This document shows, piece by piece, positions 5,969 through 38,107 of a stretch of 64,000 bases of DNA (positions are counted from its first letter, which is position 1; each line of letters starts with the position of its first letter). Made by a program: the position numbers and the translations under genes. The stretch is from Trypanosoma brucei (lineage: Eukaryota), in contig CM000208.1 in the NCBI GenBank assembly GCA_000002445.1, forward strand, positions 1,664,001 through 1,728,000, given 5' to 3'. Below the pieces are notes generated by a model. That model searched no databases. It saw only the letters and a program-made list of their open reading frames with translations, and was not told the origin of the DNA.

Positions 5969-5984
5969 GGCGATTCTCCTTGCA

Positions 5985-9539: not shown

Positions 9540-10469
9540 AGGTGTGGATGTGGTTACGCTTCCAAATTCGTTTGTTACCAGTGACAGTTTAACCAAGTTT
9601 TGGACTTTACTGCTGGAGAGTTGAGGAAGAGGGAACTGTAATTTTTTTTTACCTGTGCGTGCCGAGTGGTATATGTGTACGTATGTTTACTTCCAGCCTG
9701 AGCTGGCGAAAAGAGCAAATTGAGTCGGAATATGTAGTGGTTGCTGGGTTCCTCCGCTTGAAGTGTAGTGGGAAGTTGTACCCTGGTTGACTGAGGACTC
9801 TCTCTCACTACGCCCTCATGAATCTTGTTTCCACATCGCTCATCCGCCTGGCGGTTGCTTACAACGTTCGCATATGGTCGTAGTTACGCCTTTACAGGGG
9901 ACGTGTGCACTTGCGCCCCAAGCGTTGGGGTGAATGGGAGGGACATGTTTTTTCAACTCAGTGTTTTGGGGGTAACATTGGCGACGGCATTGAATGTCAG
10001 GATGTTCCCTTGTTTCCTGTGTAATAACGGCATTCTGCGCTTTACTTTTGTACATGCCTTTTTCTTTGATTCCTATCCTGTTGCTGGAAAGCAAGCACTT
10101 TCTATAATTGCTGTTCATCCCGGTGCCACGTGTGCCCTGCATTTTTTCAAGGGGTCCCTGATCGATCCATTATAACAGCAGCAGTGAACTTGGAAAGAGG
10201 GAAAAAGGACAATGTGGCACGCTACGTACACCTTGGTCTGAACAGTAAGGGTTATATGTCGTGGACTTGCTGCCGGCGGTCGCGTGATGACCCAGTGGTG
10301 TCTACGATTAGGGGCTGAGCGTTAGCCAAAGCAAAGCCGCTTTCCGAATCTGTTGGCCCCTACAAGGGCTAAAGGTCTCACGAACTCGAAATGTTAGCCA
10401 TGAGCCACCTTTTTTTTTGTGTATTCGTTTCTTGGAAACTGCGTATTTTGTTGCGGTGCATACATCCAG

Positions 10470-10496
10470 TTGTGTGTGTGTGTGTGTGTGTGTGTG
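10470..10496. repeat. (TG)n microsatellite
   Basis: 13 TG units seen directly. Confidence 0.9.
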
Positions 10497-11309
10497 GATC
10501 GAAACCCACAAAAACGAAGTGAATTTCCGGGGTTTAGACTCATTTCTCTATTTTCAGAACGAGTATACGGGGTTGTGTTAGTTTAACCATTACTGGAATA
10601 TTTTTCCGTGCACACCCTACACTGTGGTATTGTTATGATGGGAAACGACAGCAATAACGAGATGGTGCCCTCATCCTTTTTGATGTGCCATTTTATGTTT
10701 ACTTTGCATGCTTATCAACAATCTGCGCACCTTTTCATGCCTTCCTCTTCTGCACCACTGCCCTTTCCGATTTTGGTCCGCGTCACGGTACTGCGTGCTT
10801 GCTTAAGAATCTTCGGTTGAGTGACAAGTGTTATTGTGAAACTACCGGACTGAATCCAACGCACCTATTCAACAACTCACGCGAAGGCTCACTCGTAATA
10901 TACGATGTGGGGGTAGTTGGAAGGGATGCGTATGTGGCCGTTTTTTGTAAGCGCAACCTGCGGCAGAGTGATGTGGCTACTTTGCCTTCTTGTTTCTGTC
11001 TTGCCACAGTATTTCCCCTCTTTTTATTTTTTTCGCACTGTTCTGTCCCTGAAGTTTCTCTCGCCTTACGTAAAGTTCACGAAGAAAAAAAAAGCAAAAG
11101 GTCTACTAATCTGTGAGGAAGAAGAAACAGGGGAACCTCCCATACTTTTTTAGGTGCGACCACTTCCCCACACATAGGGGAGACGGTGATTAACACCCAA
11201 ACAAACAGAAAGGTTGCAGATCTTTTATTTCTGTAGTATCCACGTGTTGCTCGCTGTTCCGCAACTTAGTGCGAGCTGTTTGACTGGAGCCTTCTTTGGA
11301 TAATCCAGG

Positions 11310-13016
11310 ATGGAGGAGACGTACAGTCCCTTTACGGGACGTCAAGGCCAGTACAATCAGGGCTACAATGGTGGAGGGCGACGAGATAGCCGCGGCGGTA
11401 TGGGAGAAAGAATAAAACCCGTTGACTGGGGGAATGTTTCTCTCGTTCCCGGAAACTGGAAGGTTCTCGATGGTAAGGCGATCAAAAAGGCAGGGGAGAT
11501 AAAGACATCCACCCCAGAAGCGGGACAACTCAGCGAGGAGGAGGCGACGAAATGGCGAGAAGAACATGTGATCACCATATTTGGTGATGATTGTCCTCCA
11601 CCTATGTCATCGTTTGATCACCTGTGTGGAATCGTTCCACCATACCTTCTAAAGAAGCTCACCGCCCAGAATTTCACTGCACCAACTCCCGTGCAAGCGC
11701 AGTCATGGCCCGTTCTTCTATCTGGTCGTGACCTTGTGGGGGTTGCGAAGACAGGCTCCGGAAAGACGCTTGGCTTCATGGTTCCTGCCCTCGCCCACAT
11801 TGCAGTGCAGGAACCCCTACGCTCCGGTGACGGTCCAATGGTTGTTGTACTGGCTCCCACCCGCGAACTTGCTCAGCAGATTGAAGAAGAAACAAAAAAG
11901 GTTATCCCCGGGGACGTGTATTGCGGTTGCGTTTATGGAGGAGCACCAAAAGGACCCCAGCTTGGGTTGCTGCGGAGAGGTGTGCACATTCTCGTCGCCA
12001 CACCAGGTCGTTTGATAGACTTCTTGGATATTAAACGCATTAACTTGCATCGTGTCACCTATCTCGTTCTAGATGAAGCAGATCGCATGCTTGATATGGG
12101 ATTTGAGCCGCAGGTTCGCAAAATATGCGGCCAGATAAGGCCAGACCGGCAGACAGTCATGTTCTCCGCCACTTGGCCACGTGAGATTCAGCGACTGGCA
12201 GCAGAATTTCAGAAGCAGTGGATACGCATCAGTGTGGGCAGTACGGAACTTCAGGCTAACAAGGACGTCACTCAGCGTTTCATTCTCACACAAGAGTTTG
12301 CGAAGCAGGACGAGTTGAGGAAGCTCATGCAAGAACATCGGGAGGAACGCGTGCTGGTTTTCTGCAAGATGAAGCGGACTGCGGATGAGCTGGAGCGGCA
12401 ACTAAGACGATGGGGCTACGACGCAATGGCTATTCATGGTGACAAGGAGCAGCGGCAGAGGGAGTTCATCCTAGCGAGGTTCCGTAAAGATCCACGATTG
12501 TGCCTTGTCGCCACAGACGTTGCTGCTCGAGGTCTGGACATCAAACAATTGGAAACTGTTATAAACTACGACTTCCCCATGCAGATCGACGACTACGTAC
12601 ATCGTATTGGCCGCACAGGCCGTGCAGGCGCGAAGGGAGATGCGTTTACGCTTATCACGAAGAAGGAGGCTCAAATAACACCTTCAGTGTTGAAGGAACT
12701 TATTGGGATCCTGGAGCGCGCACAACAGGAAATACCTGATTGGATGATCGAATGGAACGCGCAACAGCCGAGATACCAGGTGAAGCGGAATCGCGGTATG
12801 AACGGGTTTGGAAGACATCAAAGCGCCCCCTTCCTGCGTAACGGTCACCGCCCATCGTTCTCAGCGAACGGGAATTATAGTGCTCACGGAAATGGTACAT
12901 TTGGCCTTGGAAAGCACAACGACGACGCTGTTCCCTTCTCGTCATCCGCTATTCAATACAAGCGATTTGACAGTGACGACGAGGCGGAACCGTCCCGCAA
13001 GAAATACGCGAGATAG
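11310..13016 (+). CDS. ATP-dependent DEAD-box RNA helicase, DDX5/DDX17/Dbp2 subfamily
   Basis: Q-motif 'FTAPTPVQ', motif I 'AKTGSGKT', motif Ia 'PTRELA', motif II 'LDEADRMLDMGF', motif III 'SAT', motif VI 'HRIGRTGRAG'. The C-terminal tail is low-complexity and Gly/Asn/Arg-rich. Confidence 0.9.
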   Translation: MEETYSPFTGRQGQYNQGYNGGGRRDSRGGMGERIKPVDWGNVSLVPGNWKVLDGKAIKKAGEIKTSTPEAGQLSEEEATKWREEHVITIFGDDCPPPMSSFDHLCGIVPPYLLKKLTAQNFTAPTPVQAQSWPVLLSGRDLVGVAKTGSGKTLGFMVPALAHIAVQEPLRSGDGPMVVVLAPTRELAQQIEEETKKVIPGDVYCGCVYGGAPKGPQLGLLRRGVHILVATPGRLIDFLDIKRINLHRVTYLVLDEADRMLDMGFEPQVRKICGQIRPDRQTVMFSATWPREIQRLAAEFQKQWIRISVGSTELQANKDVTQRFILTQEFAKQDELRKLMQEHREERVLVFCKMKRTADELERQLRRWGYDAMAIHGDKEQRQREFILARFRKDPRLCLVATDVAARGLDIKQLETVINYDFPMQIDDYVHRIGRTGRAGAKGDAFTLITKKEAQITPSVLKELIGILERAQQEIPDWMIEWNAQQPRYQVKRNRGMNGFGRHQSAPFLRNGHRPSFSANGNYSAHGNGTFGLGKHNDDAVPFSSSAIQYKRFDSDDEAEPSRKKYAR

Positions 13017-13656
13017 GCGGAATCCGTTTTTCAACCGAAATCACGATACATGTTGAGCCAGCACCAGCAGTGACTGATGATGAAGGGGAAAATGGAAGAT
13101 TTTTTGATCAACAGCTAGTAAGTTAACGAGTAATACGCAATGAAAAGCGATCGAATTCCATGAATTGTTCCGGAAGTGAGAACAGTAGGTATATATATAT
13201 TTATATACGTAATGAATATGGAAGGAACTGGTAAAGGAAAGTAGTATCGTTCAACAAAGTAACCTTTAAAAAAATTGTAACGAAGGAAATGTGCACTTCT
13301 CTTCTTTGAGTGCAGGTGAATCGCTTGACGTTCCTCATTAAATACGGGGAAATGAGAATCTGTAGTGGATGAGTGTAAGCTCCGTCTCTGACAGAATCTA
13401 CCGGATTTTTGTGACGACACTTGCAAGAAGCTTGTCGATCCTCTTTTCATGTGTGTTGTAGACATTTCCCCACTCGGCTCTTTCTGCGCATCCTTTTTCA
13501 AATAATTACACTAAGACAAATGTTGTGCTATACAACAATAAGAGGGTGTTGCATCGCGCTTAAAAACGTTTGTGAACTCCATTGCCGCTCCTGCTATCAT
13601 GCTAATCCCTTTGTTACCCTAATTTACCATGAGATAGGGAGGCGCTACGTTAGCAT

Positions 13657-14418
13657 ATGAATACTATGCAGGGAATTATGAGAGATCTGCGGATGGTTAT
13701 GTCCCCCTTTCTTCTTGTTCTCGTTGTCGCAATTTCCACACCGGCCAGTGCTGCCCGTTTCTTGCTGCAAAACACTCAGCCAATATGCTTTGTTGAGGAG
13801 GTAGGAGAGGACACGCGGTTCTTGACGGGTGTTTACACGCGCAGTGACTCTCTGCCCTATCCACCTACTGTTAAAATGACCATCAAGTCACCGAGTGGCT
13901 CGGTGACGTGGGAGGGCAAAGTTGTGGCAGGAACAAACTCTTTCAGCGCTCCTGTCTCAGCTGGGTCCATTGGCAAGTATCAGATTTGTGTGAGTGTGAG
14001 CACATGGGGATTTAGGGCTTCAGATGATGGATCATCTGTTGTTATGGACGTTAACATTGACCAGAAAACAACTGTAATATCCAAGACGGAAGTGCCTATG
14101 CTGAAGAGACAGAATGTGGGGGGTATGGAAGTGTTCACTTTCCGAGACTTTGGGGGCCAACAAAAGGATATCTTGCGTCCACCAGAATACTTTAAACGCG
14201 TTGAAGGTGCGCTGTCGAAGCTGTTGATGCAGGTGAAAGACGTTAGTTCCGGTATTGATCACAACATTGAGCGTTTCTCACGCATGTTTACCACTTCAGA
14301 AAACACCCACAAGCGCATATGGGCGTTTGGTGTGCTTACCGTGCTGGTCACGATCGCCACCATATGGCTGCAGTTCCGCCTACTGAAGTCCACTCTGCGG
14401 GAGAAGAAGTTGGTGTGA
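13657..14418 (+). CDS. p24/emp24/GOLD-domain cargo receptor family protein
   Basis: N-terminal signal-peptide-like hydrophobic stretch and a luminal beta-rich region. A single C-terminal TM helix is followed by a short tail ending 'LLKSTLREKKLV', the characteristic p24 cytosolic tail with dibasic/KKxx-like signal. Confidence 0.65.
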   Translation: MNTMQGIMRDLRMVMSPFLLVLVVAISTPASAARFLLQNTQPICFVEEVGEDTRFLTGVYTRSDSLPYPPTVKMTIKSPSGSVTWEGKVVAGTNSFSAPVSAGSIGKYQICVSVSTWGFRASDDGSSVVMDVNIDQKTTVISKTEVPMLKRQNVGGMEVFTFRDFGGQQKDILRPPEYFKRVEGALSKLLMQVKDVSSGIDHNIERFSRMFTTSENTHKRIWAFGVLTVLVTIATIWLQFRLLKSTLREKKLV

Positions 14419-15143
14419 TGCCCTTATGATATGACTCCTTTCTCTTCTCCCGCATGGGGTTTGGAGACCGGAAGTGTACTCCTTTAACTCCTAAATAGCA
14501 AGTGAAGCGTGAAAGTAAGGAACGACGAAGAAGCCAAGGGGTGGAGTTATCATTTTTTTTTACCTTCTGGTGGGGCGTAGTTCCTTTAAAACTTGTGAAT
14601 TTTTCTTACCCGATGGTAGAAGTGATAGAACACAAGCGAAGAGGAAATGAGAGACGCGTAGCAAAAGGTTTATAAAAGGAGGAGACTGGCTCTGCCTTGG
14701 TTTGTGTGTGTGACGGCGGAGGGAAGAGGATGAAAAGGGGGAGCGTTGTTTCGTTATTTACGTTTTTTGCAATTTCCAGGTGTGTTTTTCTTGTTTCAAG
14801 AGGGAGGCTTAGGATACCGCAGAAAATGCGACACTAGACCTACTTGCCCACACGCCACAACGAGGGTGGAAGGCAGCAGTACAAAGGTAACACTTAACGA
14901 GCACGGACCAACTATGAAAAAAAAAACAAAGATAACACTGTTCGTCTTACAAGCGACTTCTCCAATGTCTGGTGTCACTGGGATACCTCTCCACCTCATT
15001 CGCCACCGCGATAAACTCATTTATCGAGCAGAACTTCAACACTTGGCTCTTTTAATTTCCTGATGAATTTATGGGACTTGATAGAAATCTAGGTTAGAGA
15101 AAACGTCGGTTATATTGCCGTGTCCAGTCTAAGGAAACAATGA

Positions 15144-15792
15144 GCGATGGGCGATATTTGGCTCTCATCTCTGTGTGATGACATCACTAAGCGTTTCTGA
15201 CGGAATTCGTATGCTGAACACATAACAAACGCAAATCACTCCACACTGATAACAGCTCCGCAGGCCCCAATCCCTTACCGTACATTCGCAATGAGGCAAA
15301 CGATGAAAAAATAAATGGATCGCTGACTCTGAACACATTATCTGATTGACAGGACATTTCTTTGACTATACCTCTGAATTGTGCCCCACTTCTCTCTCCA
15401 TTCCTCCCTCTTTCTGTTGGTTTCCCCCCCCCCCCCTCCTGCTGCTGCCACTACTATTCCTCCAGGTGTCTATTGCTCCTGGTGCATTACCATTAACTGC
15501 GGTATGATTACAAAGCAATTTTATCCTCACCCTGACGTGAGTGGTTCTGTGACGAGAAACCGATTGACAATAATACCAAGATCTGCTATGAGCCCGTGAT
15601 GTTGTGTGCAGACGCTGTATTAATCCCGCCCCGTATGGCAAACTCATGCCCGGGGCGATTCATGCACAGCGGAGATGCGTATTGTCTCACTTCCCCTTAT
15701 CGTAAAGTCCACTTTCTTTCCTGTTGCGTGCCTGTTTCAAATGTACGCCCGCGCGGTTTTGTGAATGAGGCTCCCCATTCCGCTGTTGTTGC
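15144..15792. repeat. 649-bp dispersed/direct repeat, copy A (upstream of BUD31)
   Basis: Near-identical by eye to 17156..17803, differing only in the length of an internal poly-C run. Flanking sequence differs on both sides of both copies. Confidence 0.85.
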
Positions 15793-16104
15793 GGGGTAAT
15801 CTGGTTTTGTGCGTGGCGGGTGCTTGCGCTGCGTTTAGTAGACGTTAACCGATGGAGTTGTTACAAACCCCCCATTTATTCGGATTCGCTATTCCGCAGG
15901 GCGGTGGTTTAGCTCTTCGAGCACATTTGTAGTGCGGGGCGGTGCTGTTACTGCTACTGAGGTGGCTCACTGCTTGTTTAACCACGGTGCCCACTTTTTT
16001 TTCCTTTTTTTGACACCTTAGCTCTCCTCTTCTTCACTTTCGCGTTCTTCCGTTTTCAGGTTAGGAGCTGTGTAGTAAACCAACGAGTATTTTTTTTTTT
16101 AGGG

Positions 16105-16830
16105 ATGCCGAAAATCCGCCCAGGAATGAAGCGGCCGCCACCGGGGTTTGAAAAAATCAATGACAAACTTGACGAATACGACGCAGAGATGCGACTGGCT
16201 CTTTCTGAGGACCCTTCCCAGGCTGAACTACCGGTGCCGTCCAAACGAAAGGACAAACAAAATAAGGTTGAAGCGACTAAAGACAAGCATGCTCAAAGTG
16301 TACAGCGCGGTGATGGTGGTGTAGCGGGCCACTCGGACGGCGAATTAGACAAACCGGAACCCCCCTTGTGGCGAGTGGCGCGAATCAATCGGGAGCGCAC
16401 ACGTTATGTGTTTAATGCGTGTTTCCGAGAGCGGATAATTGCGGAGGAGGTTCTCGACTACTGCTGTGAGATGAATTTCATTGATGCTGGTCTCGTTCGG
16501 CGCTGGTCACTTGCTGGGTATGAACGGCTGTGTTGCAATACTTGCTGCTTACCGGGAGCTGCTAGTGAAGCGGCTCGTATGGTGAATAAGTTTGCAAACC
16601 GTGACAAAAAAGATCGGCGCACTAATGGTAATGATGACACCGGGGGTACCTGCATTTGCCGCGTGCCCGATGAGAAGCGTCTGGCCAAGGCGTTCACTAG
16701 GTGTATGGTGTGTGGGTGCTCTGGTTGTGGTTCGGGGGGTAAGCGCAAGCACGACACCGAGGAAAAAGATAGTGTATCCGACATGAAAAAAGTACGCACG
16801 GACGACTACGAGGTGAAATCGGGTAAATAG
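16105..16830 (+). CDS. BUD31: BUD31/G10 family pre-mRNA splicing factor homolog
   Basis: N-terminus 'MPKIRPGMKRPPPGFEKI...LDEYDAEMR' matches G10 'MPKV.T..K.PP.G.E.I...L.E.D.KMR'. Further matches are 'RYVF...F.RE.I..E...YC', 'W...GYE.LCC..C' and 'TCICRVP', with a C-terminal Cys cluster 'CMVCGCSGCG'. It carries a large basic/acidic insertion between the N-terminal and Cys-rich parts. Confidence 0.8.
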   Translation: MPKIRPGMKRPPPGFEKINDKLDEYDAEMRLALSEDPSQAELPVPSKRKDKQNKVEATKDKHAQSVQRGDGGVAGHSDGELDKPEPPLWRVARINRERTRYVFNACFRERIIAEEVLDYCCEMNFIDAGLVRRWSLAGYERLCCNTCCLPGAASEAARMVNKFANRDKKDRRTNGNDDTGGTCICRVPDEKRLAKAFTRCMVCGCSGCGSGGKRKHDTEEKDSVSDMKKVRTDDYEVKSGK

Positions 16831-27257: not shown

Positions 27258-28727
27258 ATGATGCAAGGATTTCCCTCCTTAGGGGAAAAGGACCCAGCTG
27301 CCAAGCCACCAGCAGAGGGAAAACCGACCTCAGCTTCGGGAGAGAAACAACCGAGCGAAGCAGTACAGGGAATACCGCTATACCAAGGTGATGGTGATGA
27401 TAAAGAAGGATTGAAACGTTTTGTGGTACAGGGGTATAAGGATGTGTGGGCTGCAATATTATACATTTTATGCATTTTCGCCATCGCTGGAATCGGAGTA
27501 CACGCAATGTGGTCGAGAGGCTCCTCCGAAGAAAAACAAGAGGTTAAAAAAACAACAGCAGAAAATGAGCCTTCAAATTCAAAGTCCCTTTGGAGTGTCT
27601 ACTTTCTTGTTGGTGTGGCTGCTGCCGCTTCCATCGGTGCGGCGTCCGTGTCGTTTCTACTGATGCGTATGTTTCCACGCAAGACAATTCTTTTCGCAAA
27701 CATTGCCGCCATAATTATAAACATCATTTCAGCTTTGCTAGCAATATTATCAGGACACATGGTAAGCGGTATCCTCATGATGACATTATGTGCCCTGCAC
27801 ATAATGTGGTTTTTCTTTGCACGGCACCGAATTCCTTTTGCTGCAGAACTTCTCAAGGCCTCTATCGATGTGTTGTCTGGCTACAAGGCGGTATATTTAT
27901 TCAATGTCATGTTATGTGTTGGTTGCACAGGATTACTTATGCTGTGGGCAAACGCTTTTATGTGGACGTATCAAAGAAGTCAAGCGCAAGATTCATCATT
28001 CTCCGGTATAATTTACCTTTTCCTTATGCTTTTCTTATTTTGGACATCGCAGGTGACAACTAATCTGATGCATGTAACAACTGCTGGACTTACTGCTACA
28101 TGGTACTTTGCTGGTAAGGAGAATATGCCAAAGAATCCCACCCTCGCCTCATTCAAGCGAGGTACCACCACAAGCTTCGGCTCCATTTGCTTTGGGTCAC
28201 TGCTTGTGGCAATTATCCGTCTCATACGGTGGCTCGTGTCAACCGCAGAAGACAGTGAACATGAAATATTACGCTGTGTATTCCTTTGTATTATTGGTTG
28301 TTTGGAGAGGCTGATGGAATACTTCAACACATACGCATTTGTTCATGTTGCCATCTATGGTTGTGGGTACATTGAAGCAGCGAAAATGACATGGGAGTTG
28401 TGTAAACAGTGTGTGTTTTCTGCCCTGTTCAATGACACTCTGATTGATGTAACACTCGGGCTACTTGCTACTTGTGGTTCGCTACTGGTTGGTAGTGTTT
28501 TTGGTTTTCTCTTAAAATCCTGGGCAGCATTCGCGCTTGGTTTTGCCGTTTCTATATTGGTTCACCTCCTCATATTCTCCCCCGTGGGTAGTGCTGTAAC
28601 CACCTTATTCGTATGTTATGCGGAAGTGCCTGAGGGCCTTGAGCACTCATCCCCTGACTTGTACGCGGCTCTTCAGAGAACTGACCAAAACGGCACATCA
28701 AATGGAGCAGCACCTCCACGTGTGTAA
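27258..28727 (+). CDS. CTL/Pns1-like (SLC44 / 'Choline_transpo' family) multi-pass membrane transporter, array copy 1
   Basis: Conserved family core 'ATWYFAGKENMPKNPTLASFKRGTTTSFGSICFGSLLVAIIRLIRW' and 'CLERLMEYFNTYAFVHVAIYGCGYIEAAKMTWEL...NDTLIDVTLGLLATCGSLLVG'. These match Pns1/CTL 'WYF.....P..P...S..R.....GS.AFGSL..AI...IR' and 'CL...L.Y.N.YA....AIYG..F...AK.....L..N.......D.V.D..L..G.L.V'. The protein has ~10 predicted TM helices. The substrate cannot be inferred. Confidence 0.75.
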   Translation: MMQGFPSLGEKDPAAKPPAEGKPTSASGEKQPSEAVQGIPLYQGDGDDKEGLKRFVVQGYKDVWAAILYILCIFAIAGIGVHAMWSRGSSEEKQEVKKTTAENEPSNSKSLWSVYFLVGVAAAASIGAASVSFLLMRMFPRKTILFANIAAIIINIISALLAILSGHMVSGILMMTLCALHIMWFFFARHRIPFAAELLKASIDVLSGYKAVYLFNVMLCVGCTGLLMLWANAFMWTYQRSQAQDSSFSGIIYLFLMLFLFWTSQVTTNLMHVTTAGLTATWYFAGKENMPKNPTLASFKRGTTTSFGSICFGSLLVAIIRLIRWLVSTAEDSEHEILRCVFLCIIGCLERLMEYFNTYAFVHVAIYGCGYIEAAKMTWELCKQCVFSALFNDTLIDVTLGLLATCGSLLVGSVFGFLLKSWAAFALGFAVSILVHLLIFSPVGSAVTTLFVCYAEVPEGLEHSSPDLYAALQRTDQNGTSNGAAPPRV

Positions 28728-29407
28728 AACTTCTTAAGCTCATGCATATAAGGAGGATATGTGTTTGTCTCTCTTCTGCAAAAACTTTCCCTCCCATACC
28801 CAATTTCGCACACTCGCACCGTGTGAAGAAGAGTCAAATATCTTTTGTTTTTGATTCACTATATATAATGCACTGAAGCGTGTGTTATGCATGCAAATAA
28901 ATTGATAACATCGCTGACTCTTCTTTTTGTTCTATTATATTACTCTGTTCGATTTGCTCTTGACTATTTTGTATTTTCTTTCCGTTTCATGTGATGGATG
29001 CGAGGGACATAACCACAACATATTGAATGTGTCGCGGTGTAAACTGCTCTGTTGTGAGCGATCGGTATTGTGTTAGTATTTTTGTTCCAAGTGTTGAGGA
29101 AGTTGAATAGAGTCCTGATGCAGTCCACTCATGCGGTAAGCAGTGATGCGCCTTAGTGTGAGAATTCCTTTGATACTGTGTGATTTGCACACTTCCATTC
29201 TTCTTCGTCACTGGAAGCTGTTGCTACTGCATACTAATGCATCATCATTTCCTATTTCCTTTCCTCTTCCATAATTTTCCATTTTCTCTGTTTTTTAATC
29301 AAACAAATAAGATATATTGCAAGTGTACGCAATTGCTATCCAGCAACAAAGGGCTATAGACACTATTATCTCAGTGATAAGGTATTGTTTATTTCTGAAG
29401 AAGGACG

Positions 29408-30880
29408 ATGAACAAGCAATACGGAACAGAAACAAATCGCTACGACTATGATGTGTGGCAGGAAAATCAGCGGAATTGTCGGCAGGAATGTTCACCACAA
29501 GCTGTGCCGCTACAAGGAATACCGCTATACCAAGGTGATGGTGATGATAAAGAAGAGCTGAAACGTTTTGTGGTACAAGGGTATAAGGATGTGTGGGCTG
29601 CAATATTATACATTTTATGCATTCTTGCAACTATTGGGCTTGGAATATATAATATTGTGAAGCCTGATGCTTCAGGAGAAGAAGAAGAGGAAAGTGTCGT
29701 ATCGGTTAAATCATCTAACCCGTTTTCTGGTGTGTTTAAAAGTGTTTACATTTGGATTGCCGTTGCTGGTGGAATTGCCATAGCTGTGGCGTCGCTTTCC
29801 TTTCTCTTTATGAGGATGTTTCCTCGGAAGATTATTATTGTGGCAAATGTTGTCTCGATTATCATCAATATTGGAGGCGCCGCTGCCGCCATTGTGATGG
29901 GGGTGCTTCCACTTGGCATTGCTTTACTCATTATGTGCGCTATGCACATACTGTGGTTTTACTTTGCACGGCACCGAATTCCTTTTGCTGCAGAACTTCT
30001 CAAGGCCTCTATCGATGTGTTGTCTGGCTACAAGGCGGTATATTTATTCAATGTCATGTTATGTGTTGGTTGTGCGGGGTTTACCATATTATGGGGGTAC
30101 GCAGCTGTTCCTTCACTAGAAACTGCCAGTAACAAAGGTGACAGTGGGGCACTAGCGGTTTTGCTACTTCTTTTCCTTATGTTGGTTTTTTTTTGGTCAT
30201 CTCAAGTTACTGGAAATCTGATGCATGTAACAACTGCTGGACTTACTGCTACATGGTACTTTGCTGGTAAGGAGAATATGCCAAAGAATCCCACCCTCGC
30301 CTCATTCAAGCGAGGTACCACCACAAGCTTCGGCTCCATTTGCTTTGGGTCACTGCTTGTGGCAATTATCCGTCTCATACGGTGGCTCGTGTCAACCGCA
30401 GAAGGTAGTGAACATGAAATATTACGCTGTATATTCCTTTGTATTATTGGTTGTTTGGAGAGTTTGATGGAATACTTCAACACATACGCATTTGTTCATG
30501 TTGCCATCTATGGTTGTGGGTACATTGAAGCAGCGAAAATGACATGGGAGTTGTGTAAACAGTGTGTGTTTTCTGCCCTGTTCAATGACACTCTAATTGA
30601 TGTAACACTGAATCTACTTGTTACTTGTGGTTCGCTACTGGTTGGTAGTGTTGTCGGTCTACTCTTCAGATCCTGGGTAGCATTCGCGCTTGGTTTTGCC
30701 GTTTCTATATTGGTTCACCTCCTCATATTCTCCCCCGTAACCAGTGCTGTAACCACCTTATTCGTATGTTATGCGGAAGTGCCTGAGGGCCTTGAGCACT
30801 CATCCCCTGACTTGTACGCGGCTCTTCAGAGAACTGACCAAAACGGCACATCAAATGGAGCAGCACCTCCACGTGTGTAA
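29408..30880 (+). CDS. CTL/Pns1-like transporter, array copy 2
   Basis: Same conserved core as copy 1. Distinct N-terminus 'MNKQYGTETNRYDYDV' and a unique TM2-4 segment. Confidence 0.75.
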   Translation: MNKQYGTETNRYDYDVWQENQRNCRQECSPQAVPLQGIPLYQGDGDDKEELKRFVVQGYKDVWAAILYILCILATIGLGIYNIVKPDASGEEEEESVVSVKSSNPFSGVFKSVYIWIAVAGGIAIAVASLSFLFMRMFPRKIIIVANVVSIIINIGGAAAAIVMGVLPLGIALLIMCAMHILWFYFARHRIPFAAELLKASIDVLSGYKAVYLFNVMLCVGCAGFTILWGYAAVPSLETASNKGDSGALAVLLLLFLMLVFFWSSQVTGNLMHVTTAGLTATWYFAGKENMPKNPTLASFKRGTTTSFGSICFGSLLVAIIRLIRWLVSTAEGSEHEILRCIFLCIIGCLESLMEYFNTYAFVHVAIYGCGYIEAAKMTWELCKQCVFSALFNDTLIDVTLNLLVTCGSLLVGSVVGLLFRSWVAFALGFAVSILVHLLIFSPVTSAVTTLFVCYAEVPEGLEHSSPDLYAALQRTDQNGTSNGAAPPRV

Positions 30881-31579
30881 AACTTCTTAAGCTCATGCAT
30901 ATAAGGAGGATATGTGTTTGTCTCTCTTCTGCAAAAACTTTCCCTCCCATACCCAATTTCGCACACTCGCACCGTGTGAAGAAGAGTCAAATATCTTTTG
31001 TTTTTGATTCACTATATATAATGCACTGAAGCGTGTGTTATGTATGCATTTTACCGGCTTCACCATGATAAACCACATACTTGATGTAGTAGGTGAAATT
31101 AGATGCCGCAGTATCTGGTCGTGTGTAGCAGTAAATATATTAATAAATAACGACTCTTTATTATCGTAACTGCGCAAAAAGTGTTTAACATGAGCGATAT
31201 TTTTTATGATACGTACGACATTATCGTGAGCGATCGGTATTGTGTTAGTATTTTTGTTCCGTGTGTTGAGGAAGTTGAATAGAGTCCTGATGCAGTCCAC
31301 TCATGCGGTAAGCAGTGATGCGCCTTAGTGTGAAAATTCCTTTGATACTGTGTGATTTGCACACTTCCATTCTTCTTCGTCACTGGAAGCTGTTTCTACT
31401 GTATACTAATGCATCATCATTTCCTATTTCCTTTCCTCCTCCATCATTTTCCATTTTCTCTGTTTTGTAATCAAACAAATAAGATATATTGCAAGTGTAC
31501 GCAATTGCTATCCAGCAACAAAGGGCTATAGACACTATTATCTCAGTGATAAGGTATTGTTTATTTCTGAAGAAGGACG

Positions 31580-33052
31580 ATGAACAAGCAACACGGAACA
31601 GAAACAAATCGTTACGACTATGATGTGTCGCAGAAGGATCGGCGAAATTCTGATTCTCGGGAGTGTTCACCACATGCTGTGCCGCTACAAGGAATACCGC
31701 TATACCAAGGTGAAGGTAATAATCAAGAAGGATTGAAACGTTTTGTGGTACAAGGGTACAAGGATGTGTGGGCTGCAATATTATACATTTTATGCATTCT
31801 TGCAACTATTGGGCTTGGAATATATAATATTATGCGGAAGGATTCTTCGATGAAGGATGTAGAAAGCACTAATACAACAGCAGAAAATGAGCCTTCAAAT
31901 TCAAAGTCCCTTTGGAGTGTCTACTTTCTTGTTGGCGTGGCTGCTGCCGCTTCCATCGGTGCGGCGTCCGTGTCGTTTCTACTGATGCAGAAGTTTCCAC
32001 GCAAGACAATTCTTTTTGCAAACATTGCTGCCATAATTATAAACATCATTTCAGCTCTTTTGGCGTATCGATCAGGCTATATTGTGGCTTCTGCTGTAAT
32101 GATGACATTATGTGCCCTGCACATACTGTGGTTTTACTTTGCACGGCACCGAATTCCTTTTGCTGCAGAACTTCTCAAGGCCTCTATCGATGTGTTGTCT
32201 GGCTACAAGGCGGTATATTTATTCAATGTCATGTTATGTGTTGGTTGCACAGGATTACTTATACTGTGGGCAAACGCTTTTATGTGGGCGTTTCGGAGGG
32301 TTAAATGGGAGACATCCGCTTCTTTCGGGTGGCCTCTGCTTGTGTTCCTTATGCTTTTCTTATTTTGGACATCGCAGGTGACAACTAATCTGATGCATGT
32401 AACAACTGCTGGACTTACTGCTACATGGTACTTTGCTGGTAAGGAGAATATGCCAAAGAATCCCACCCTCGCCTCATTCAAGCGAGGTACCACCACAAGC
32501 TTCGGCTCCATTTGCTTTGGGTCACTGCTTGTGGCAATTATCCGTCTCATACGGTGGCTCGTGTCAACCGCAGAAGACAGTGAACATGAAATATTACGCT
32601 GTATATTCCTTTGTATTATTGGTTGTTTGGAGAGTTTGATGGAATACTTCAACACATACGCATTTGTTCATGTTGCCATCTATGGTTGTGGGTACATTGA
32701 AGCAGCGAAAATGACATGGGAGTTGTGTAAACAGTGTGTGTTTTCTGCCCTATTCAATGACACTCTGATTGATGTAACACTCGGGCTACTTGCTACTTGT
32801 GGTTCGCTACTGGTTGGTAGTGTTTTTGGTTTTCTCTTAAAATCCTGGGCAGCATTCGCGTTTGGTTTTGCCGTTTCTATATTGGTTCACCTCCTCATAT
32901 TCTCCCCCGTGGGTAGTGCTGTAACCACCTTATTCGTATGTTATGCGGAAGTGCCTGAGGGCCTTGAGCACTCATCCCCTGACTTGTACGCGGCTCTTCA
33001 GAGAACTGACCAAAACGGCACATCAAATGGAGCAGCACCTCCACGTGTGTAA
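31580..33052 (+). CDS. CTL/Pns1-like transporter, array copy 3 (mosaic of copy-2-type N-terminus and copy-1-type middle)
   Basis: N-terminus 'MNKQHGTETNRYDYDV' is copy-2-like. The middle 'TTAENEPSNSKSLWSVYFLVGVAAAASIGAASVSFLLM' is identical to copy 1. The C-terminal half is identical to copy 1. Confidence 0.75.
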   Translation: MNKQHGTETNRYDYDVSQKDRRNSDSRECSPHAVPLQGIPLYQGEGNNQEGLKRFVVQGYKDVWAAILYILCILATIGLGIYNIMRKDSSMKDVESTNTTAENEPSNSKSLWSVYFLVGVAAAASIGAASVSFLLMQKFPRKTILFANIAAIIINIISALLAYRSGYIVASAVMMTLCALHILWFYFARHRIPFAAELLKASIDVLSGYKAVYLFNVMLCVGCTGLLILWANAFMWAFRRVKWETSASFGWPLLVFLMLFLFWTSQVTTNLMHVTTAGLTATWYFAGKENMPKNPTLASFKRGTTTSFGSICFGSLLVAIIRLIRWLVSTAEDSEHEILRCIFLCIIGCLESLMEYFNTYAFVHVAIYGCGYIEAAKMTWELCKQCVFSALFNDTLIDVTLGLLATCGSLLVGSVFGFLLKSWAAFAFGFAVSILVHLLIFSPVGSAVTTLFVCYAEVPEGLEHSSPDLYAALQRTDQNGTSNGAAPPRV

Positions 33053-33725
33053 AACTTCTTAAGCTCATGCATATAAGGAGGATATGTGTTTGTCTCTCTT
33101 CTGCAAAAACTTTCCCTCCCATACCCAATTTCGCACACTCGCACCGTGTGAAGAAGAGTCAAATATCTTTTGTTTTTGATTCACTATATATAATGCACTG
33201 AAGCGTGTGTTATGCATGCAAATAAATTGATAACATCGCTGACTCTTCTTTTTGTTCTATTATATTACTCTGTTCGATTTGCTCTTGACTATTTTGTATT
33301 TTCTTTCCGTTTCATGTGATGGATGCGAGGGACATAACCACAACATATTGAATGTGTCGCGGTGTAAACTGCTCTGCTGTGAGCGGTCAGTATTGAGTTA
33401 ATATTTTTGTTCCGTGTGTTGAGGAAGTTGAATAGAGTCCTGATGCAGTCCACTCATGCGGTAAGCAGTGATGCGCCTTAGTGTGAAAATTCCTTTGATA
33501 CTGTGTGATTTGCACACTTCCATTCTTCTTCGTCACTGGAAGCTGTTGCTACTGCATACTAATGCATCATCATTTCCTATTTCCTTTCCTCTTCCATAAT
33601 TTTCCATTTTCTCTGTTTTGTAATCAAACAAATAAGATATATTGCAAGTGTACGCAATTGCTATCCAGCAACAAAGGGCTATAGACACTATTATCTCAGT
33701 GATAAGGTATTGTTTATTTCTGAAG

Positions 33726-35243
33726 ATGACGCAAAAGGGGTACGTCGGAGTTCCTGAGGAACCATACAGGTCTAAATTTACTCCTGAGGTGGGACCTTAT
33801 TATGGATTTGAAGGAGAAGGAACACATGCTGTGCCGCTACAAGGAATACCGCTATACCAAGGTGAAGGTAATAATCAAGAAGGATTGAAACGTTTTGTGG
33901 TACAAGGGTATAAGGATGTGTGGGCTGCAATATTATACATTTTATGCATTCTTGCAACTATTGGGCTTGGAATATATAATATTTGTCAGCAGGGATTGCG
34001 TAGTTTAATATCTGCTGATGTAGTAAATATTTTTTGGGCTTGTAATGATGATAGTTGTATTGACTCGGTGTGTCTTTTCTTTCTTCTTGCTTTTGCTTTT
34101 TCAGTTATTGTATGTTTGTCCTCTTTGTCGTTGATGAAACGTTTTGCTAGCGGAATAATCAAGGGTTGCAACGTTATTTTGCTTATTTTTTATGTCGTTG
34201 CTTTCCTTTTTTCGGTATGGGCACTTAATAACGCTTTTGCTATTCCATGGTTTTGTATGCTGGTTGTGCATTTACTTTGGCTTTTCTTTGCAGGTCGGCG
34301 TATTCCTCTCGCTGCTGAGCTTCTGAAAAGCTCTTCTACTGTGGTATGTAACTACAAAGCACTGTGCGCAGTCAACGCCGTCCTGTTTGGTGCACATGTC
34401 TTTTTCAGTGTTATGTGGGCGTCTGTTATGAAACCACTATATGCGCAGCTGGCGAAGATGGAGTTAAATCCGAGCGCTGGTGGAGCTCGCAATGAGGAAG
34501 ATTTGACTCTCAACATTCTATTCCTAAGCTTGCTTGCTCTGCTGTTCGTCATGTTTTGGGCGACGCAGGTGACAACTAATCTGATGCATGTAACAACTGC
34601 TGGACTTACTGCTACATGGTACTTTGCTGGTAAGGAGAATATGCCAAAGAATCCCACCCTCGCCTCATTCAAGCGAGGTACCACCACAAGCTTCGGCTCC
34701 ATTTGCTTTGGGTCACTGCTTGTGGCAATTATCCGTCTCATACGGTGGCTCGTGTCAACCGCAGAAGACAGTGAACATGAAATATTACGCTGTATATTCC
34801 TTTGTATTATTGGTTGTTTGGAGAGTTTGATGGAATACTTCAACACATACGCATTTGTTCATGTTGCCATCTATGGTTGTGGGTACACTGAAGCAGCGAA
34901 AATGACATGGGAGTTGTGTAAACGGTGTTCTTGTGCTGCTTTGTTTAATGACAGACTGATTGATGTGACATTATTTGTTGCTTCATTTATTGGTTCGCTA
35001 CTGGTTGGTGTTATCGTCGGTCTTGTGTCTGCATCGGGAGGTGGATTTGCGTTTGGTTTCACCGTTTCTATATTGGTTCACCTTTTCATATTCTCCCCCG
35101 TGGGTAGTGCTGTAACCACCTTATTCGTATGTTATGCGGAAGTGCCTGAGGGCCTTGAGCACTCATCCCCTGACTTGTACGCGGCTCTTCAGAGAACTGA
35201 CCAAAACGGCACATCAAATGGAGCAGCACCTCCACGTGTGTAA
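33726..35243 (+). CDS. CTL/Pns1-like transporter, array copy 4 (subfamily B, divergent transmembrane core)
   Basis: The ORF-track start at 33642 reads through the conserved 5' flank. The first Met aligned with the other copies is at 33726 ('MTQKGYVGVPEEPYRSKF'). The 'GEGNNQEGLKRFVVQGYKDVWAAILYILCILATIGLGIYNI' segment is shared with copy 3. Then comes a divergent TM region with 'RRIPLAAELLKSSSTVVCNYKAL'. The invariant core and shared tail follow. Confidence 0.7.
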   Translation: MTQKGYVGVPEEPYRSKFTPEVGPYYGFEGEGTHAVPLQGIPLYQGEGNNQEGLKRFVVQGYKDVWAAILYILCILATIGLGIYNICQQGLRSLISADVVNIFWACNDDSCIDSVCLFFLLAFAFSVIVCLSSLSLMKRFASGIIKGCNVILLIFYVVAFLFSVWALNNAFAIPWFCMLVVHLLWLFFAGRRIPLAAELLKSSSTVVCNYKALCAVNAVLFGAHVFFSVMWASVMKPLYAQLAKMELNPSAGGARNEEDLTLNILFLSLLALLFVMFWATQVTTNLMHVTTAGLTATWYFAGKENMPKNPTLASFKRGTTTSFGSICFGSLLVAIIRLIRWLVSTAEDSEHEILRCIFLCIIGCLESLMEYFNTYAFVHVAIYGCGYTEAAKMTWELCKRCSCAALFNDRLIDVTLFVASFIGSLLVGVIVGLVSASGGGFAFGFTVSILVHLFIFSPVGSAVTTLFVCYAEVPEGLEHSSPDLYAALQRTDQNGTSNGAAPPRV

Positions 35244-35916
35244 AACTTCTTAAGCTCATGCATATAAGGAGGATATGTGTTTGTCTCTCTTCTGCAAAAA
35301 CTTTCCCTCCCATACCCAATTTCGCACACTCGCACCGTGTGAAGAAGAGTCAAATATCTTTTGTTTTTGATTCACTATATATAATGCACTGAAGCGTGTG
35401 TTATGCATGCAAATAAATTGATAACATCGCTGACTCTTCTTTTTGTTCTATTATATTACTCTGTTCGATTTGCTCTTGACTATTTTGTATTTTCTTTCCG
35501 TTTCATGTGATGGATGCGAGGGACATAACCACAACATATTGAATGTGTCGCGGTGTAAACTGCTCTGTTGTGAGCGGTCAGTATTGAGTTAATATTTTTG
35601 TTCCGTGTGTTGAGGAAGTTGAATAGAGTCCTGATGCAGTCCACTCATGCGGTAAGCAGTGATGCGCCTTAGTGTGAAAATTCCTTTGATACTGTGTGAT
35701 TTGCACACTTCCATTCTTCTTCGTCACTGGAAGCTGTTTCTACTGCATACTAATGCATCATCATTTCCTATTTCCTTTCCTCCTCCATCATTTTCCATTT
35801 TCTCTGTTTTTTAATCAAACAAATAAGATATATTGCAAGTGTACGCAATTGCTATCCAGCAACAAAGGGCTATAGACACTATTATCTCAGTGATAAGGTA
35901 TTGTTTATTTCTGAAG

Positions 35917-37470
35917 ATGACGCAAAAGGGGTACGTCGGAGTTCCTGAGGAACCATACAGGTCTAAATTTACTCCTGAGGGGGGACCTTATTATGGATTT
36001 GAAGGAGAAGGAACACATGCTGTGCCGCACAAGGGAATACCGCTATACCAGGTGAAGGTTAATATCAAAAAGGGATTGAAACGTTTTGTGGTCAAGGGTA
36101 TTAGGGATGTGTGGGCTGCAATTTAATACATTTATGCATTTCTTGCAACTATTGGCTTTGCGTGGTATAATACTTTTTCTCAAAATTTTTCTGAAATTAT
36201 ATAGGATAGTGTTGGAAAGTTATTCTGGCGCAGTTCTGACGAATGCTTTACTGTTTTTCTCTCTGTTCTTTTCTTTGTTTCTTCTGTCAGTTCAGTAATT
36301 TTATCCTTGTTTTCTTTATCGTTGATGAAGCGCTTTCCACATGATATGATCATCACGGCAAACCTTCTATTCTTTGCCGTGTGCATTGTTGGTTTTTTGT
36401 TGTCTATTCTTTGGGGAAATCTTTATTTACTTCTTTTATGTTTGGGTCTTTTTATTGTGCATTGGTTATGTTTTACGGAGTTGCGGAACCGCGTTCCATT
36501 CGCTGCTGAGCTTCTGAAAAGCTCTTCTACTGTGGTATGTAACTACAAAGCACTGTGCGCAGTCAACGTCGTCCTCTTTGGTATGTTTACCCTTTTTCTG
36601 GTTTTGTGGTGCTCCGCTTTCTCTGCACTGAGCAATGTGTTGAGTAAACAACCAGACCCGAGCAGTGGTGTGAGTGGTAAACGAGGCAATTCATTTTTGA
36701 TTATTTCTGTATATTTACTGCACCTAATGTTGCTGTTTGTCATGTTTTGGGCGACGCAGGTGACAACTAATCTGATGCATGTAACAACTGCTGGACTTAC
36801 TGCTACATGGTACTTTGCTGGTAAGGAGAATATGCCAAAGAATCCCACCCTCGCCTCATTCAAGCGAGGTACCACCACAAGCTTCGGCTCCATTTGCTTT
36901 GGGTCACTGCTTGTGGCAATTATCCGTCTCATACGGTGGCTCGTGTCAACCGCAGAAGACAGTGAACATGAAATATTACGCTGTATATTCCTTTGTATTA
37001 TTGGTTGTTTGGAGAGTTTGATGGAATACTTCAACACATACGCATTTGTTCATGTTGCCATCTATGGTTGTGGGTACACTGAAGCAGCGAAAATGACATG
37101 GGAGTTGTATAAACGGTGTTCTTGTGCTGCTTTGTTTAGTTGTTTTTTTGTTGACGCTATGTTGTGTCTATTTGCAGTACTAAGCGCCCTTCTTGTTTGT
37201 GCTGTTGTTTGTACTGCTTATGGTTTAGTCTTTGATTTATCGTTTGGTATTTTGCATATTACCGCTGAAATCTTCGTATTCAGTTTTGGTGTTTGTATGT
37301 TGGTTCACCTCTTCGTCTTTTCTTCCGTAACCAGTGCTGTAACCACCTTATTCGTATGTTATGCGGAAGTGCCTGAGGGCCTTGAGCACTCATCCCCTGA
37401 CTTGTACGCGGCTCTTCAGAGAACTGACCAAAACGGCACATCAAATGGAGCAGCACCTCCACGTGTGTAA
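35917..37470 (+). pseudogene. CTL/Pns1-like transporter, array copy 5, disrupted by frameshifts in the N-terminal third (probable pseudogene or sequencing-error-containing copy)
   Basis: The copy-4-type start 'MTQKGYVGVPEEPYRSKFTPE' (35917) runs only to 36126. The frame resumes at 36307 with a subfamily-B middle 'RVPFAAELLKSSSTVVCNYKALCAVNVV' and the invariant core. The 36000-36310 interval shows multiple substitutions/indels relative to copy 4. Confidence 0.6.
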
Positions 37471-38107
37471 AACTTCTTAAGCTCATGCATATAAGGAGGA
37501 TATGTGTTTGTCTCTCTTCTGCAAAAACTTTCCCTCCCATACCCAATTTCGCACACTCGCACCGTGTGAAGAAGAGTCAAATATCTTTTGTTTTTGATTC
37601 ACTATATATAATGCACTGAAGCGTGTGTTATGTATGCAAATAAATTGATAACATCGCTGACTCTTCTTTTTGTTCTATTATATTACTCTGTTCGATTTGC
37701 TCTTGACTATTTTGTATTTTCTTTCCGTTTCATGTGATGGATGCGAGGGACATAACCACAACATATTGAATGTGTCGCGGTGTAAACTGCTCTGTTGTGA
37801 GCGGTCAGTATTGAGTTAATATTTTTGTTCCGTGTGTTGAGGAAGTTGAATAGAGTCCTGATGCAGTCCACTCATGCGGTAATAGGAGTGACATTCCAAT
37901 GTTTGTACATTATTTGTGTCGTTTTAAATTTATTACGTCTTTTTTTTTTTTGTGTGTGTGTGTGCTTCTTGTCTTTCTGATGTTGTGGTGATGTCTTCTA
38001 TCTGTTTTTTTTTCAGTTTCTATTCATTGCTTAATATTGTTTTTTTACTTCTTTTTTATTGTTGGTGTAGATACGGATTGTAGAAGTCGTGTTGTTGGTC
38101 TGCCTGA

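What the first reader, a model, noticed from the sequence alone, without database searches (positions are those of the whole stretch)
28050..29407. Homogenised 3' coding core, 3' flank and 5' flank with homology breaking exactly at the start codon
In every unit a ~230-nt block ('caggtgacaactaatctgatgcatgtaacaactgctggacttactgctacatggtactttgctggtaaggagaatatgccaaag...gaacatgaaatattacgctgt') is nucleotide-identical, even between the two otherwise divergent subfamilies. The last ~130 nt of coding sequence and the entire ~680-nt intergenic spacer are also essentially identical across units. That spacer includes the 3' UTR, polyadenylation/trans-splicing tracts and 5' UTR. Identity continues up to the ATG ('...ttgtttatttctgaag|ATG') and is lost immediately inside the ORF. 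So all copies likely share identical RNA-processing and UTR regulatory elements while encoding different N-terminal halves. The identical coding core could also be a single RNAi or antibody handle for the whole family.
Basis: seen in the sequence. Interest (0 to 1): 0.55.

Follow-up and report, generated by a model that had tools for sequence, protein, structure and literature searches.

The report
Gene-converted trypanosome transporter gene array
This is a tandem array of five choline-transporter-like genes on Trypanosoma brucei chromosome 10 in which gene conversion keeps some segments (a coding core, the 3' coding end and most of the spacers) identical while others stay very different; it is real, but surveys of T. 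brucei gene arrays have already reported concerted evolution and recombination breakpoints for this array.

Summary
The window is T. b. brucei TREU927 chromosome 10. It holds five tandem choline-transporter-like (PF04515) genes, U1 to U5; U5 carries two in-frame stops. All five copies are identical over 28062-28251 (190 nt; 230 nt if U2 is left out) and over 28590-28889 (the last 138 nt of coding sequence, stop codon included, plus 162 nt of 3' flank). In the 120-codon core, synonymous difference between paralogues is 0-0.012 (0.07-0.08 against U2). In the segments flanking the core it is 0.13-0.90 between subfamilies. Between T. brucei and T. vivax or T. theileri it is saturated (0.77-0.79). 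The "shared UTRs" claim holds only in part. U1 has an unrelated 5' flank and N-terminus. U2 carries a private 184-nt cassette in its 3' flank that is kept in three strains. The last copy shares only 410 nt of 3' flank. The array is "Tb103 / Tb10.70.0040" in Jackson 2007 and in the 2010 T. b. gambiense genome paper. Those papers already report concerted evolution and recombination breakpoints for it. Verdict: already known, low interest.

The parts
27258..28727 (+). U1, first array copy (489 aa, choline transporter-like). It has a unique 5' flank and a unique first ~35 codons; similarity to the other units begins at 27364.
   Evidence: ORF list; Pfam PF04515 E=4e-67; local alignment of the 5' region
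29408..30880 (+). U2 (490 aa), the most divergent of the U1-U3 subfamily. It has 8 differences in the 230-nt core block.
   Evidence: a cluster member named T. b. brucei TREU927 (XP_822915.1) is listed, but it was not compared with U2
31580..33052 (+). U3 (490 aa), identical to TREU927 protein XP_822916.1.
   Evidence: 0 differences to P0002; accession
33726..35243 (+). U4 (505 aa), second subfamily. Its ATG directly follows the shared '...ctgaag'.
35917..37470 (+). U5, last copy, with two in-frame stop codons; it is not among the four annotated TREU927 proteins. The T. b. gambiense orthologue is intact (517 aa).
28048..28401 (+). Homogenised coding core in U1. Counterparts are at +2153 (U2), +4325 (U3), +6516 (U4) and +8707 (U5). 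The run identical in all five is 28062-28251.
   Evidence: runs; paralogue pS 0-0.012, or 0.07-0.08 against U2; 0.77-0.79 against T. vivax and T. theileri; variable sites
28590..28889 (+). 300-nt block identical in all five units: the last 138 nt of coding sequence (stop included) plus the first 162 nt of 3' flank. The 135-nt coding part (45 codons) shows no variation in 13 copies from three strains.
28728..29407 (+). Spacer S1 (680 nt). S3 (33053-33725) and S4 (35244-35916) differ from it by 9-10 substitutions plus a 7-nt indel just before the ATG.
31043..31226 (+). 184-nt cassette private to the 3' flank of U2. It replaces the 164-nt block found in the other spacers (28890-29053 in S1). It is 99.5% conserved at the same place in T. 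b. gambiense and T. equiperdum.
37471..37880 (+). 3' flank of the last copy, homologous to the internal spacers for 410 nt only. This probably marks the extent of the shared 3' UTR.
   Evidence: the method of delimiting UTRs this way is from Jackson 2007
29245..29311 (+). Pyrimidine-rich tract (80-87% C+T), followed by the first AG at 29310-29311. This is the predicted trans-splice acceptor region shared by U2-U5. It is inferred, not mapped.
27366..27476 (+). Block A, a further shared segment ('QGIPLYQG...KRFVVQGYKDVWAAILYILCI'). It is 84-100% identical in U1-U4 and shows strain-specific patchwork.

Best explanation
The region is part of a tandem array of choline-transporter-like genes on T. 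brucei TREU927 chromosome 10. It lies in a polycistronic unit between the TbPTP1-like phosphatase and a BRCT-domain gene. The array evolves by segmental (partial) concerted evolution. Short-tract gene conversion and unequal crossing-over between neighbouring units repeatedly overwrite certain segments. These are the coding core, the last 45 codons, most of the intergenic spacer, and two smaller coding blocks. Other segments escape conversion and stay deeply divergent. These are the first ~35 codons, three membrane-spanning stretches, and a 3'-flank cassette private to U2.

Shown here: identity at synonymous sites, the mosaic structure, copy-number differences between strains, and differences in which variant each copy carries.

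Inferred: conversion persists where purifying selection keeps the sequences similar enough for homologous recombination. It stops where divergence or selection for distinct isoforms blocks it. That would place one boundary at or within 7 nt of the start codon. A consequence is that U2-U5 probably share their trans-splicing region and 5' UTR, and that U1, U3, U4 and U5 share a 3' UTR.
For: Identity of the locus:
- PF04515 hits at E about 1e-66 to 1e-68.
- U3 is identical to TREU927 XP_822916.1.
- Neighbouring genes are syntenic in T. b. gambiense, T. equiperdum, T. vivax and T. theileri.

Conversion rather than constraint:
- In the core (120 codons, about 82 synonymous sites), paralogue pS is 0-0.012, or 0.07-0.08 against U2.
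- The last 45 codons show 0 differences.
- Between the two subfamilies, pS is 0.36-0.90 in the segments flanking the core.
- For the same core, T. brucei against T. theileri or T. vivax gives pS 0.77-0.79.
- Run lengths of 190-230 nt compare with at most 42 nt in shuffles.

Ongoing exchange:
- Linked variants at 28252/28253 and at 28310/28311 are distributed patchily among 13 copies in three strains.
- T. b. gambiense lacks the U3 type.
- T. equiperdum lacks the U5 type and has a chimeric last copy.

Species-specific homogenisation:
- Core plus C-terminus trees give 100% bootstrap support for monophyly of the T. brucei copies and of the two T. congolense copies.
- The variable segments do not give this.

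Published evidence:
- Jackson 2007 lists array 103 (Tb10.70.0040; chromosome 10; 4 copies of 1470 bp; DUF580) with Ds 0.48 and Dn 0.29. The orthology topology is rejected, the concerted topology is not, and one conversion event is recorded.
- Jackson et al. 2010, Table 2, give PHI p<0.001 and 4-6 breakpoints for the same array.
Against: No recombination event was observed directly; everything is inferred from sequence patterns.

The core is also the most conserved part of the protein across species. Purifying selection therefore contributes to amino-acid identity and may be what keeps the segment convertible. The two effects cannot be fully separated.

The outgroups with DNA available (T. vivax, T. 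theileri) are distant. A lineage-specific nucleotide-level constraint in T. brucei is therefore not formally excluded.

Homogenised segments show no GC3 enrichment, so there is no sign of biased conversion.

The reasons given for where tracts stop (a homology threshold, or selection on isoforms) are inference.

Splice and poly(A) sites were not mapped.
Confidence: 0.9

Rival explanations
1. Protein-level purifying selection alone keeps the core and C-terminus identical, with no conversion.
For: The core contains the motifs most conserved across trypanosomatids, such as NxMHVTTAGxTATWYFAG and EYFNTYAFVHVAxYGCGY.
Against: Synonymous sites are identical among paralogues (0-1 of about 82 sites). 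The same codons are saturated between species (pS 0.77-0.79). The identity also runs 162 nt past the stop codon and through most of a non-coding spacer.
Confidence: 0.02
2. A nucleotide-level functional element is selected in every copy and explains the identity. Candidates are an RNA structure, a regulatory motif or an embedded non-coding RNA in the core, the 3' coding end or the spacer.
For: 3' UTRs control mRNA abundance in trypanosomes (established knowledge). An mRNA with a gene identifier in this numbering range (Tb927.10.6720; which copy it names was not verified) is listed as bound by CSD1.
Against: No Rfam family matches (best E=0.99, outside the blocks). The shared 410-nt 3' flank folds no better than shuffles (z=-0.99). 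Core synonymous sites are free to vary between species. U2 tolerates a full replacement of 164 nt of the spacer.
Confidence: 0.05
3. The direction is reversed. The array was duplicated recently and was uniform, and the divergent segments were imported later from diverged donors elsewhere in the genome by ectopic conversion.
For: Jackson 2007 documents ectopic conversion in other T. brucei arrays. The variable segments are at or near saturation at synonymous sites while adjacent blocks are identical.
Against: No donor was found in the 64-kb window or in the syntenic loci. T. congolense paralogues differ in the same segments and are alike in the same core and C-terminus. This fits old paralogues with local homogenisation. 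The U2-type variable segment 2 is closer to a T. congolense copy (59% identity) than to any T. brucei paralogue (29-34%), although bootstrap support for that grouping is weak (32-45%).
Confidence: 0.06
4. Assembly artefact: repeat collapse or consensus-calling across copies created the identical blocks.
For: Tandem repeats are hard to assemble. U5 contains a stretch that looks like base-calling error.
Against: The same mosaic, with the same boundaries, appears in three independently produced assemblies: TREU927, T. b. gambiense DAL972 and T. equiperdum.
Confidence: 0.02

Closest known systems
T. brucei tandem array 'Tb103' (Tb10.70.0040, DUF580), in Jackson 2007 BMC Evol Biol 7:54 and Jackson et al. 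2010 PLoS NTD 4:e658
   Same: It is the same locus: chromosome 10, four annotated copies of 1470 bp, about 8 kb, 11 transmembrane helices, DUF580 (to my knowledge the earlier name of PF04515). The published results already include Ds 0.48 and Dn 0.29, support for concerted evolution, one conversion event in the spacer, PHI p<0.001, 4-6 recombination breakpoints, and one subspecies-specific isoform each in T. b. brucei and T. b. gambiense.
   Different: In what I read, the papers treat the array only as a table row. Several details worked out here are not described in the text I read: the block-by-block anatomy (a 190-nt and a 300-nt invariant run), the U2-private cassette in the 3' flank, the boundary at the start codon, and the odd stretch in U5.
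Arrays with invariant non-coding regions but divergent coding sequences (Tb24 PP1 phosphatase, Tb62a, BARP Tb93), in Jackson 2007
   Same: The pattern is the same: intergenic and UTR sequence is more uniform than the coding sequence, and coding and UTR segments give conflicting phylogenetic signals.
   Different: Here the coding sequence itself alternates between identical and near-saturated segments, and one spacer carries a private cassette.
Choline transporter-like (CTL / SLC44 / yeast Pns1) family, Pfam PF04515
   Same: All four intact copies match PF04515 end to end (E about 1e-66 to 1e-68). The closest solved structure is yeast Pns1, 9f63 (E=5e-36).
   Different: Substrate and function in T. 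brucei were not tested here. One paper simply calls Tb927.10.6730 'the choline transporter' and reports it phosphorylated on its N- and C-terminal tails.

Membership tests
Segmental concerted evolution by gene conversion in a tandem array | Identity at synonymous sites in the homogenised segment, next to segments with high synonymous divergence | tested here: met
   Core pS is 0-0.012 (0.07-0.08 against U2) and C-terminus pS is 0. Between subfamilies, flanking segments give 0.36-0.90.
Segmental concerted evolution by gene conversion in a tandem array | In the homogenised segment, paralogues within a species are closer to each other than to orthologues in other species | tested here: met
   For core plus C-terminus, bootstrap support is 100% for T. 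brucei monophyly and 100% for T. congolense monophyly. Identities are 97-100% within T. brucei, 88-96% within T. congolense and 71-87% between the two species.
Segmental concerted evolution by gene conversion in a tandem array | Adjacent segments give conflicting relationships (a mosaic) | tested here: met
   Windowed identity profiles and best-match scans. Published PHI and GARD tests agree.
Segmental concerted evolution by gene conversion in a tandem array | Variants are shared patchily among copies and differ between strains, indicating ongoing exchange | tested here: met
   Sites 28252/3, 28268, 28310/11, 28372 and block A across 13 copies. Copy content differs among TREU927, DAL972 and T. 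equiperdum.
Segmental concerted evolution by gene conversion in a tandem array | GC enrichment of converted tracts (biased conversion). This is an optional feature, not a defining one. | tested here: not met
   GC3 is 0.42-0.46 in the core and C-terminus, against 0.28-0.55 in the variable segments.
Segmental concerted evolution by gene conversion in a tandem array | Direct observation of conversion events | not testable with these tools
   This needs experimental evolution or pedigree and long-read population data.
Published array Tb103 / Tb10.70.0040 | Same chromosome, copy number, gene length, span and domain | tested here: met
   Table S3 gives chromosome 10, 4 copies of 1470 bp, coordinates 1641891-1649912, DUF580. 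In the window, U1-U4 span 27258-35243 (7986 nt). U3 is identical to TREU927 XP_822916.1.
Choline transporter-like family (PF04515) | Full-length match to the Pfam model above the gathering score | tested here: met
   224-232 bits against a cut-off of 26.9; model positions 1-3 to 326 of 326.
Choline transporter-like family (PF04515) | Choline transport activity | not testable with these tools
The literature search found no functional study of these genes.

The most novel reading that the evidence does not exclude
The array may be a set of old, functionally distinct transporter isoforms. Some of these lineages could predate the T. brucei / T. congolense split. Their divergent N-terminal tails, membrane segments and (for U2) private 3'-UTR cassette would be protected by selection from an otherwise pervasive conversion process. 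On this reading the conversion boundaries, including the one at the start codon, map functional modules. The published whole-gene 'monophyly' of the T. brucei copies would then be an artefact of the homogenised core.
Probability: 0.3. Interest if true: 0.4.

Novelty: already known. Interest (0 to 1): 0.15.

Why it matters
The value is mostly practical.

Short reads and probes cannot tell the copies apart over the identical blocks. Expression, proteomic or RNAi data for the genes of this array (apparently numbered Tb927.10.67xx) therefore need care.

A double-stranded RNA from the core or the 3' end should hit every copy. The first ~100 nt of each ORF, the variable membrane segments and the U2-specific 3'-flank cassette are the copy-specific handles.

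It is also a clean textbook example of partial concerted evolution, with conversion boundaries that could be used to study the limits of homologous recombination in trypanosomes.

It does not change current understanding.

Tried and rejected
- Tandem Repeats Finder misses the array because the period exceeds 500 nt. The repeat finder and my own alignments were used instead.
- A first NJ bootstrap with Biopython timed out. A second used a Kimura distance that produced NaN values and was discarded. The Poisson-distance version is the one used.
- T. congolense DNA could not be fetched, because no gene with that exact product is on record. The T. congolense comparison is therefore at protein level only.
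- Trans-specific orthology of U2 with a T. congolense copy is suggested by 59% identity in variable segment 2. It has only 32-45% bootstrap support, so I do not claim it.
- Rfam and RNA folding of the spacer gave nothing.
- The GC3 test for biased conversion was negative.
- A literature search for functional work on T. brucei choline transporter-like proteins found nothing relevant.

Full report
**What is there.** Nearly all long ORFs in the window (28 of the 29 of at least 200 aa) are on the + strand. To my knowledge this is typical of a trypanosomatid polycistronic unit. Between 27258 and 37470 lie five tandem units with a period of 2153-2191 nt:
- U1 27258-28727
- U2 29408-30880
- U3 31580-33052
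- U4 33726-35243
- U5 35917-37470

U1-U4 encode proteins of 489-505 aa that match Pfam PF04515 (plasma-membrane choline transporter) end to end at E about 1e-66 to 1e-68. The closest solved structure is yeast Pns1, 9f63. U5 has two in-frame stops. The best database hits are from Trypanosoma brucei. U3 is residue-for-residue TREU927 XP_822916.1, and four consecutive TREU927 accessions (XP_822914 to XP_822917) fall in the same protein clusters. The window is therefore T. b. brucei TREU927 chromosome 10, just downstream of a tyrosine phosphatase that I recognise as TbPTP1-like (the identification is from my own knowledge).

**Checking the observation.**
- The quoted core string is present exactly in U1, U3, U4 and U5 but not in U2.
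- Those four units are identical over 28048-28277 (230 nt). With U2 included, the longest run identical in all five is 28062-28251 (190 nt). Positions 28062-28401 have 6 sites that vary among the five copies.
- A second run identical in all five covers 28590-28889. That is the last 138 nt of coding sequence (stop included) plus 162 nt of 3' flank.
- Between the two subfamilies, overall coding identity is only 65-71%. Column shuffles at that identity never gave an identical run longer than 42 nt.
- Spacers S1, S3 and S4 differ by 9-10 substitutions plus a 7-nt indel directly before the ATG.

Three details of the finding do not hold:
- S2 has a non-homologous 184-nt block (31043-31226) in place of the 164-nt block of the other spacers.
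- The flank after U5 matches the spacers for only 410 nt, up to 37880.
- U1's 5' flank and first 106 nt of coding sequence have no detectable similarity to the other units; homology starts at 27364.

The start-codon boundary is real for U2/U3 against U4/U5. Identity runs to '...ttgtttatttctgaag', which is followed at once by ATG in U4/U5 and by AAGGACG-ATG in U2/U3. Identity then returns about 100 nt inside the ORF in 'block A' (27366-27476). A further block at about 27810-27940 is shared by U1-U3 only. The units are mosaics of about eight segments.

I built a codon alignment and made Nei-Gojobori counts per segment.
- In the 120-codon core (about 82 synonymous sites), pS between paralogues is 0-0.012, or 0.07-0.08 against U2.
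- In the last 45 codons there are no differences at all.
- In the segments flanking the core, pS between subfamilies is 0.36-0.90.
- For the same core codons, T. brucei against T. theileri or T. vivax gives pS 0.77-0.79, which is saturated, while pN is about 0.2.

The core protein is therefore constrained, but its synonymous sites are free to change between species. Their identity among paralogues must come from recent copying. Even taking the lowest flanking between-subfamily value (0.36) as the null, seeing at most 1 difference in 82 sites has a probability of about 1e-14. This is my own binomial estimate from the numbers.

**Evidence that exchange is ongoing.** I fetched the syntenic loci of T. 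b. gambiense DAL972 and T. equiperdum.
- DAL972 has four copies, of types U1, U2, U4 and U5, and its U5 type is intact.
- T. equiperdum also has four copies, of types U1, U2, U3 and U4. Its last copy is a chimera of U4-like, U1-like, U2-like and U5-like pieces.
- Across the 13 copies, the 135-nt C-terminal coding block and 190 nt of the core are invariant.
- The few variable core sites (28252/3, 28268, 28310/11, 28372) and those in block A are distributed patchily among copies, and differently in each strain.

This is the expected footprint of short conversion tracts. The same mosaic in three independent assemblies rules out an assembly artefact.

**Other species.**
- T. theileri has a single copy at the syntenic site.
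- T. vivax has three almost identical copies in a longer unit.
- Two T. congolense proteins differ from each other in the same segments that vary in T. brucei, yet are alike in the core (88%) and C-terminus (96%).
- NJ bootstrap on core plus C-terminus gives 100% support for monophyly of each species' copies.
- In the variable segments, T. brucei monophyly drops to 12-22% (segments 1b and 2) or 68% (segment 3). U2 tends to group with one T. congolense copy, but only at 32-45% support. I regard a pre-speciation origin of the subfamilies as possible but not shown.

**Mechanism.**
- Shown: segment-wise homogenisation that includes non-coding sequence, with stable boundaries and differences between strains.
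- Inferred: conversion and unequal crossing-over operate along the whole array. Tracts are retained only where similarity is high enough for homologous recombination and where overwriting is not selected against. The most constrained coding segments therefore stay convertible, while diverged segments escape.
- The boundary at or next to the start codon fits selection for distinct N-terminal tails. One paper reports a transporter numbered Tb927.10.6730 and called 'the choline transporter' as phosphorylated on both terminal tails. With about eight boundaries in a 2.2-kb unit, however, one landing within 7 nt of the ATG is only mildly surprising (roughly 5% by my own estimate).
- No GC3 enrichment marks the converted blocks.
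- No Rfam family matches and no unusual fold explains the spacer's uniformity.

**RNA processing (prediction only).** The spacers carry a pyrimidine-rich tract at 29245-29297, with the first AG at 29310-29311. That would give a 5' UTR of about 90-96 nt shared by U2-U5. The 410 nt of 3' flank shared with the last copy probably marks the 3' UTR, following the logic used by Jackson 2007. On this view, U1 has its own 5' UTR. U2 has a 3' UTR containing a private cassette that is 99.5% conserved in three strains. 'All copies share identical regulatory elements' is therefore too strong.

**Comparison with what is known.** Jackson 2007 (PMC1855330) surveyed all T. brucei tandem arrays.
- Table S3 lists array 103: Tb10.70.0040, chromosome 10, 4 copies of 1470 bp, 1641891-1649912, 11 transmembrane helices, DUF580. 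This matches the present locus.
- Table 1 gives Ds 0.48 and Dn 0.29, presence in all six species examined, 500/500 bootstrap support for monophyly, rejection of the orthologous topology and non-rejection of the concerted one.
- The supplement records a 165-bp conversion event in the spacer. Its coordinates are close to those of the U2-specific block.
- The paper also describes other arrays in which non-coding regions are invariant while coding sequences diverge.

Jackson et al. 2010 (PMC2854126), Table 2, lists array 103 again. [quoted passage not shown] Both the phenomenon and this locus are therefore already in the literature. What I add is the fine anatomy.

**Verdict.** This is a real feature, correctly read as conversion, with the uniformity of the spacers and UTRs overstated. 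It is ordinary for T. brucei and already published, so interest is low.

Noticed in passing
window 36028-36250 (inside U5): Compared with the intact T. b. gambiense orthologue, this ~220-nt stretch has five paired single-base deletions and insertions a few bases apart, about 20 substitutions and both in-frame stops. The remaining ~1330 nt of U5 differ at only 4 sites. The length-preserving pattern looks more like base-calling error in the reference than like decay, so U5 may really be an intact fifth gene.
   Followed up: partly
window 31043-31226; L001:11636-11819; L002:7318-7501: A 184-nt cassette is found only in the 3' flank of the U2-type gene. It is embedded in otherwise homogenised spacer and is 99.5% conserved in three strains. 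It is a candidate copy-specific 3'-UTR regulatory element.
   Followed up: partly
L001 (T. b. gambiense) 7851-15910; L002 (T. equiperdum) 3534-11518: Copy content differs between strains. DAL972 lacks the U3 type. T. equiperdum lacks the U5 type, and its last copy is a chimera of U4-, U1-, U2- and U5-like pieces, consistent with unequal crossing-over.
   Followed up: yes
L003 (T. vivax) 4151-16680: T. vivax has three near-identical copies (mostly 95-100% identical in 60-nt windows) in a ~5.8-kb unit that also carries a repeated 222-aa ORF with no Pfam hit. Two of the three copies are annotated as truncated or split.
   Followed up: partly
L004 (T. theileri) 10001-11464: There is a single choline transporter-like gene at the syntenic position, between the same neighbours (phosphatase, two unnamed genes, BRCT, Sec1). 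The array is therefore an expansion seen only in the African trypanosomes sampled here (T. brucei group, T. vivax).
   Followed up: no
window 33642-33725 and 35833-35916: In U4 and U5 the shared 5' leader is open and in frame with the ATG, so the ORF finder extends U4 to a TTG at 33642. This is probably meaningless, but it could mislead automatic annotation.
   Followed up: no
window 10471-10496, 48990-49027, 62543-62577: Three (TG)n / (GT)n dinucleotide microsatellites of 13-19 repeats.
   Followed up: no
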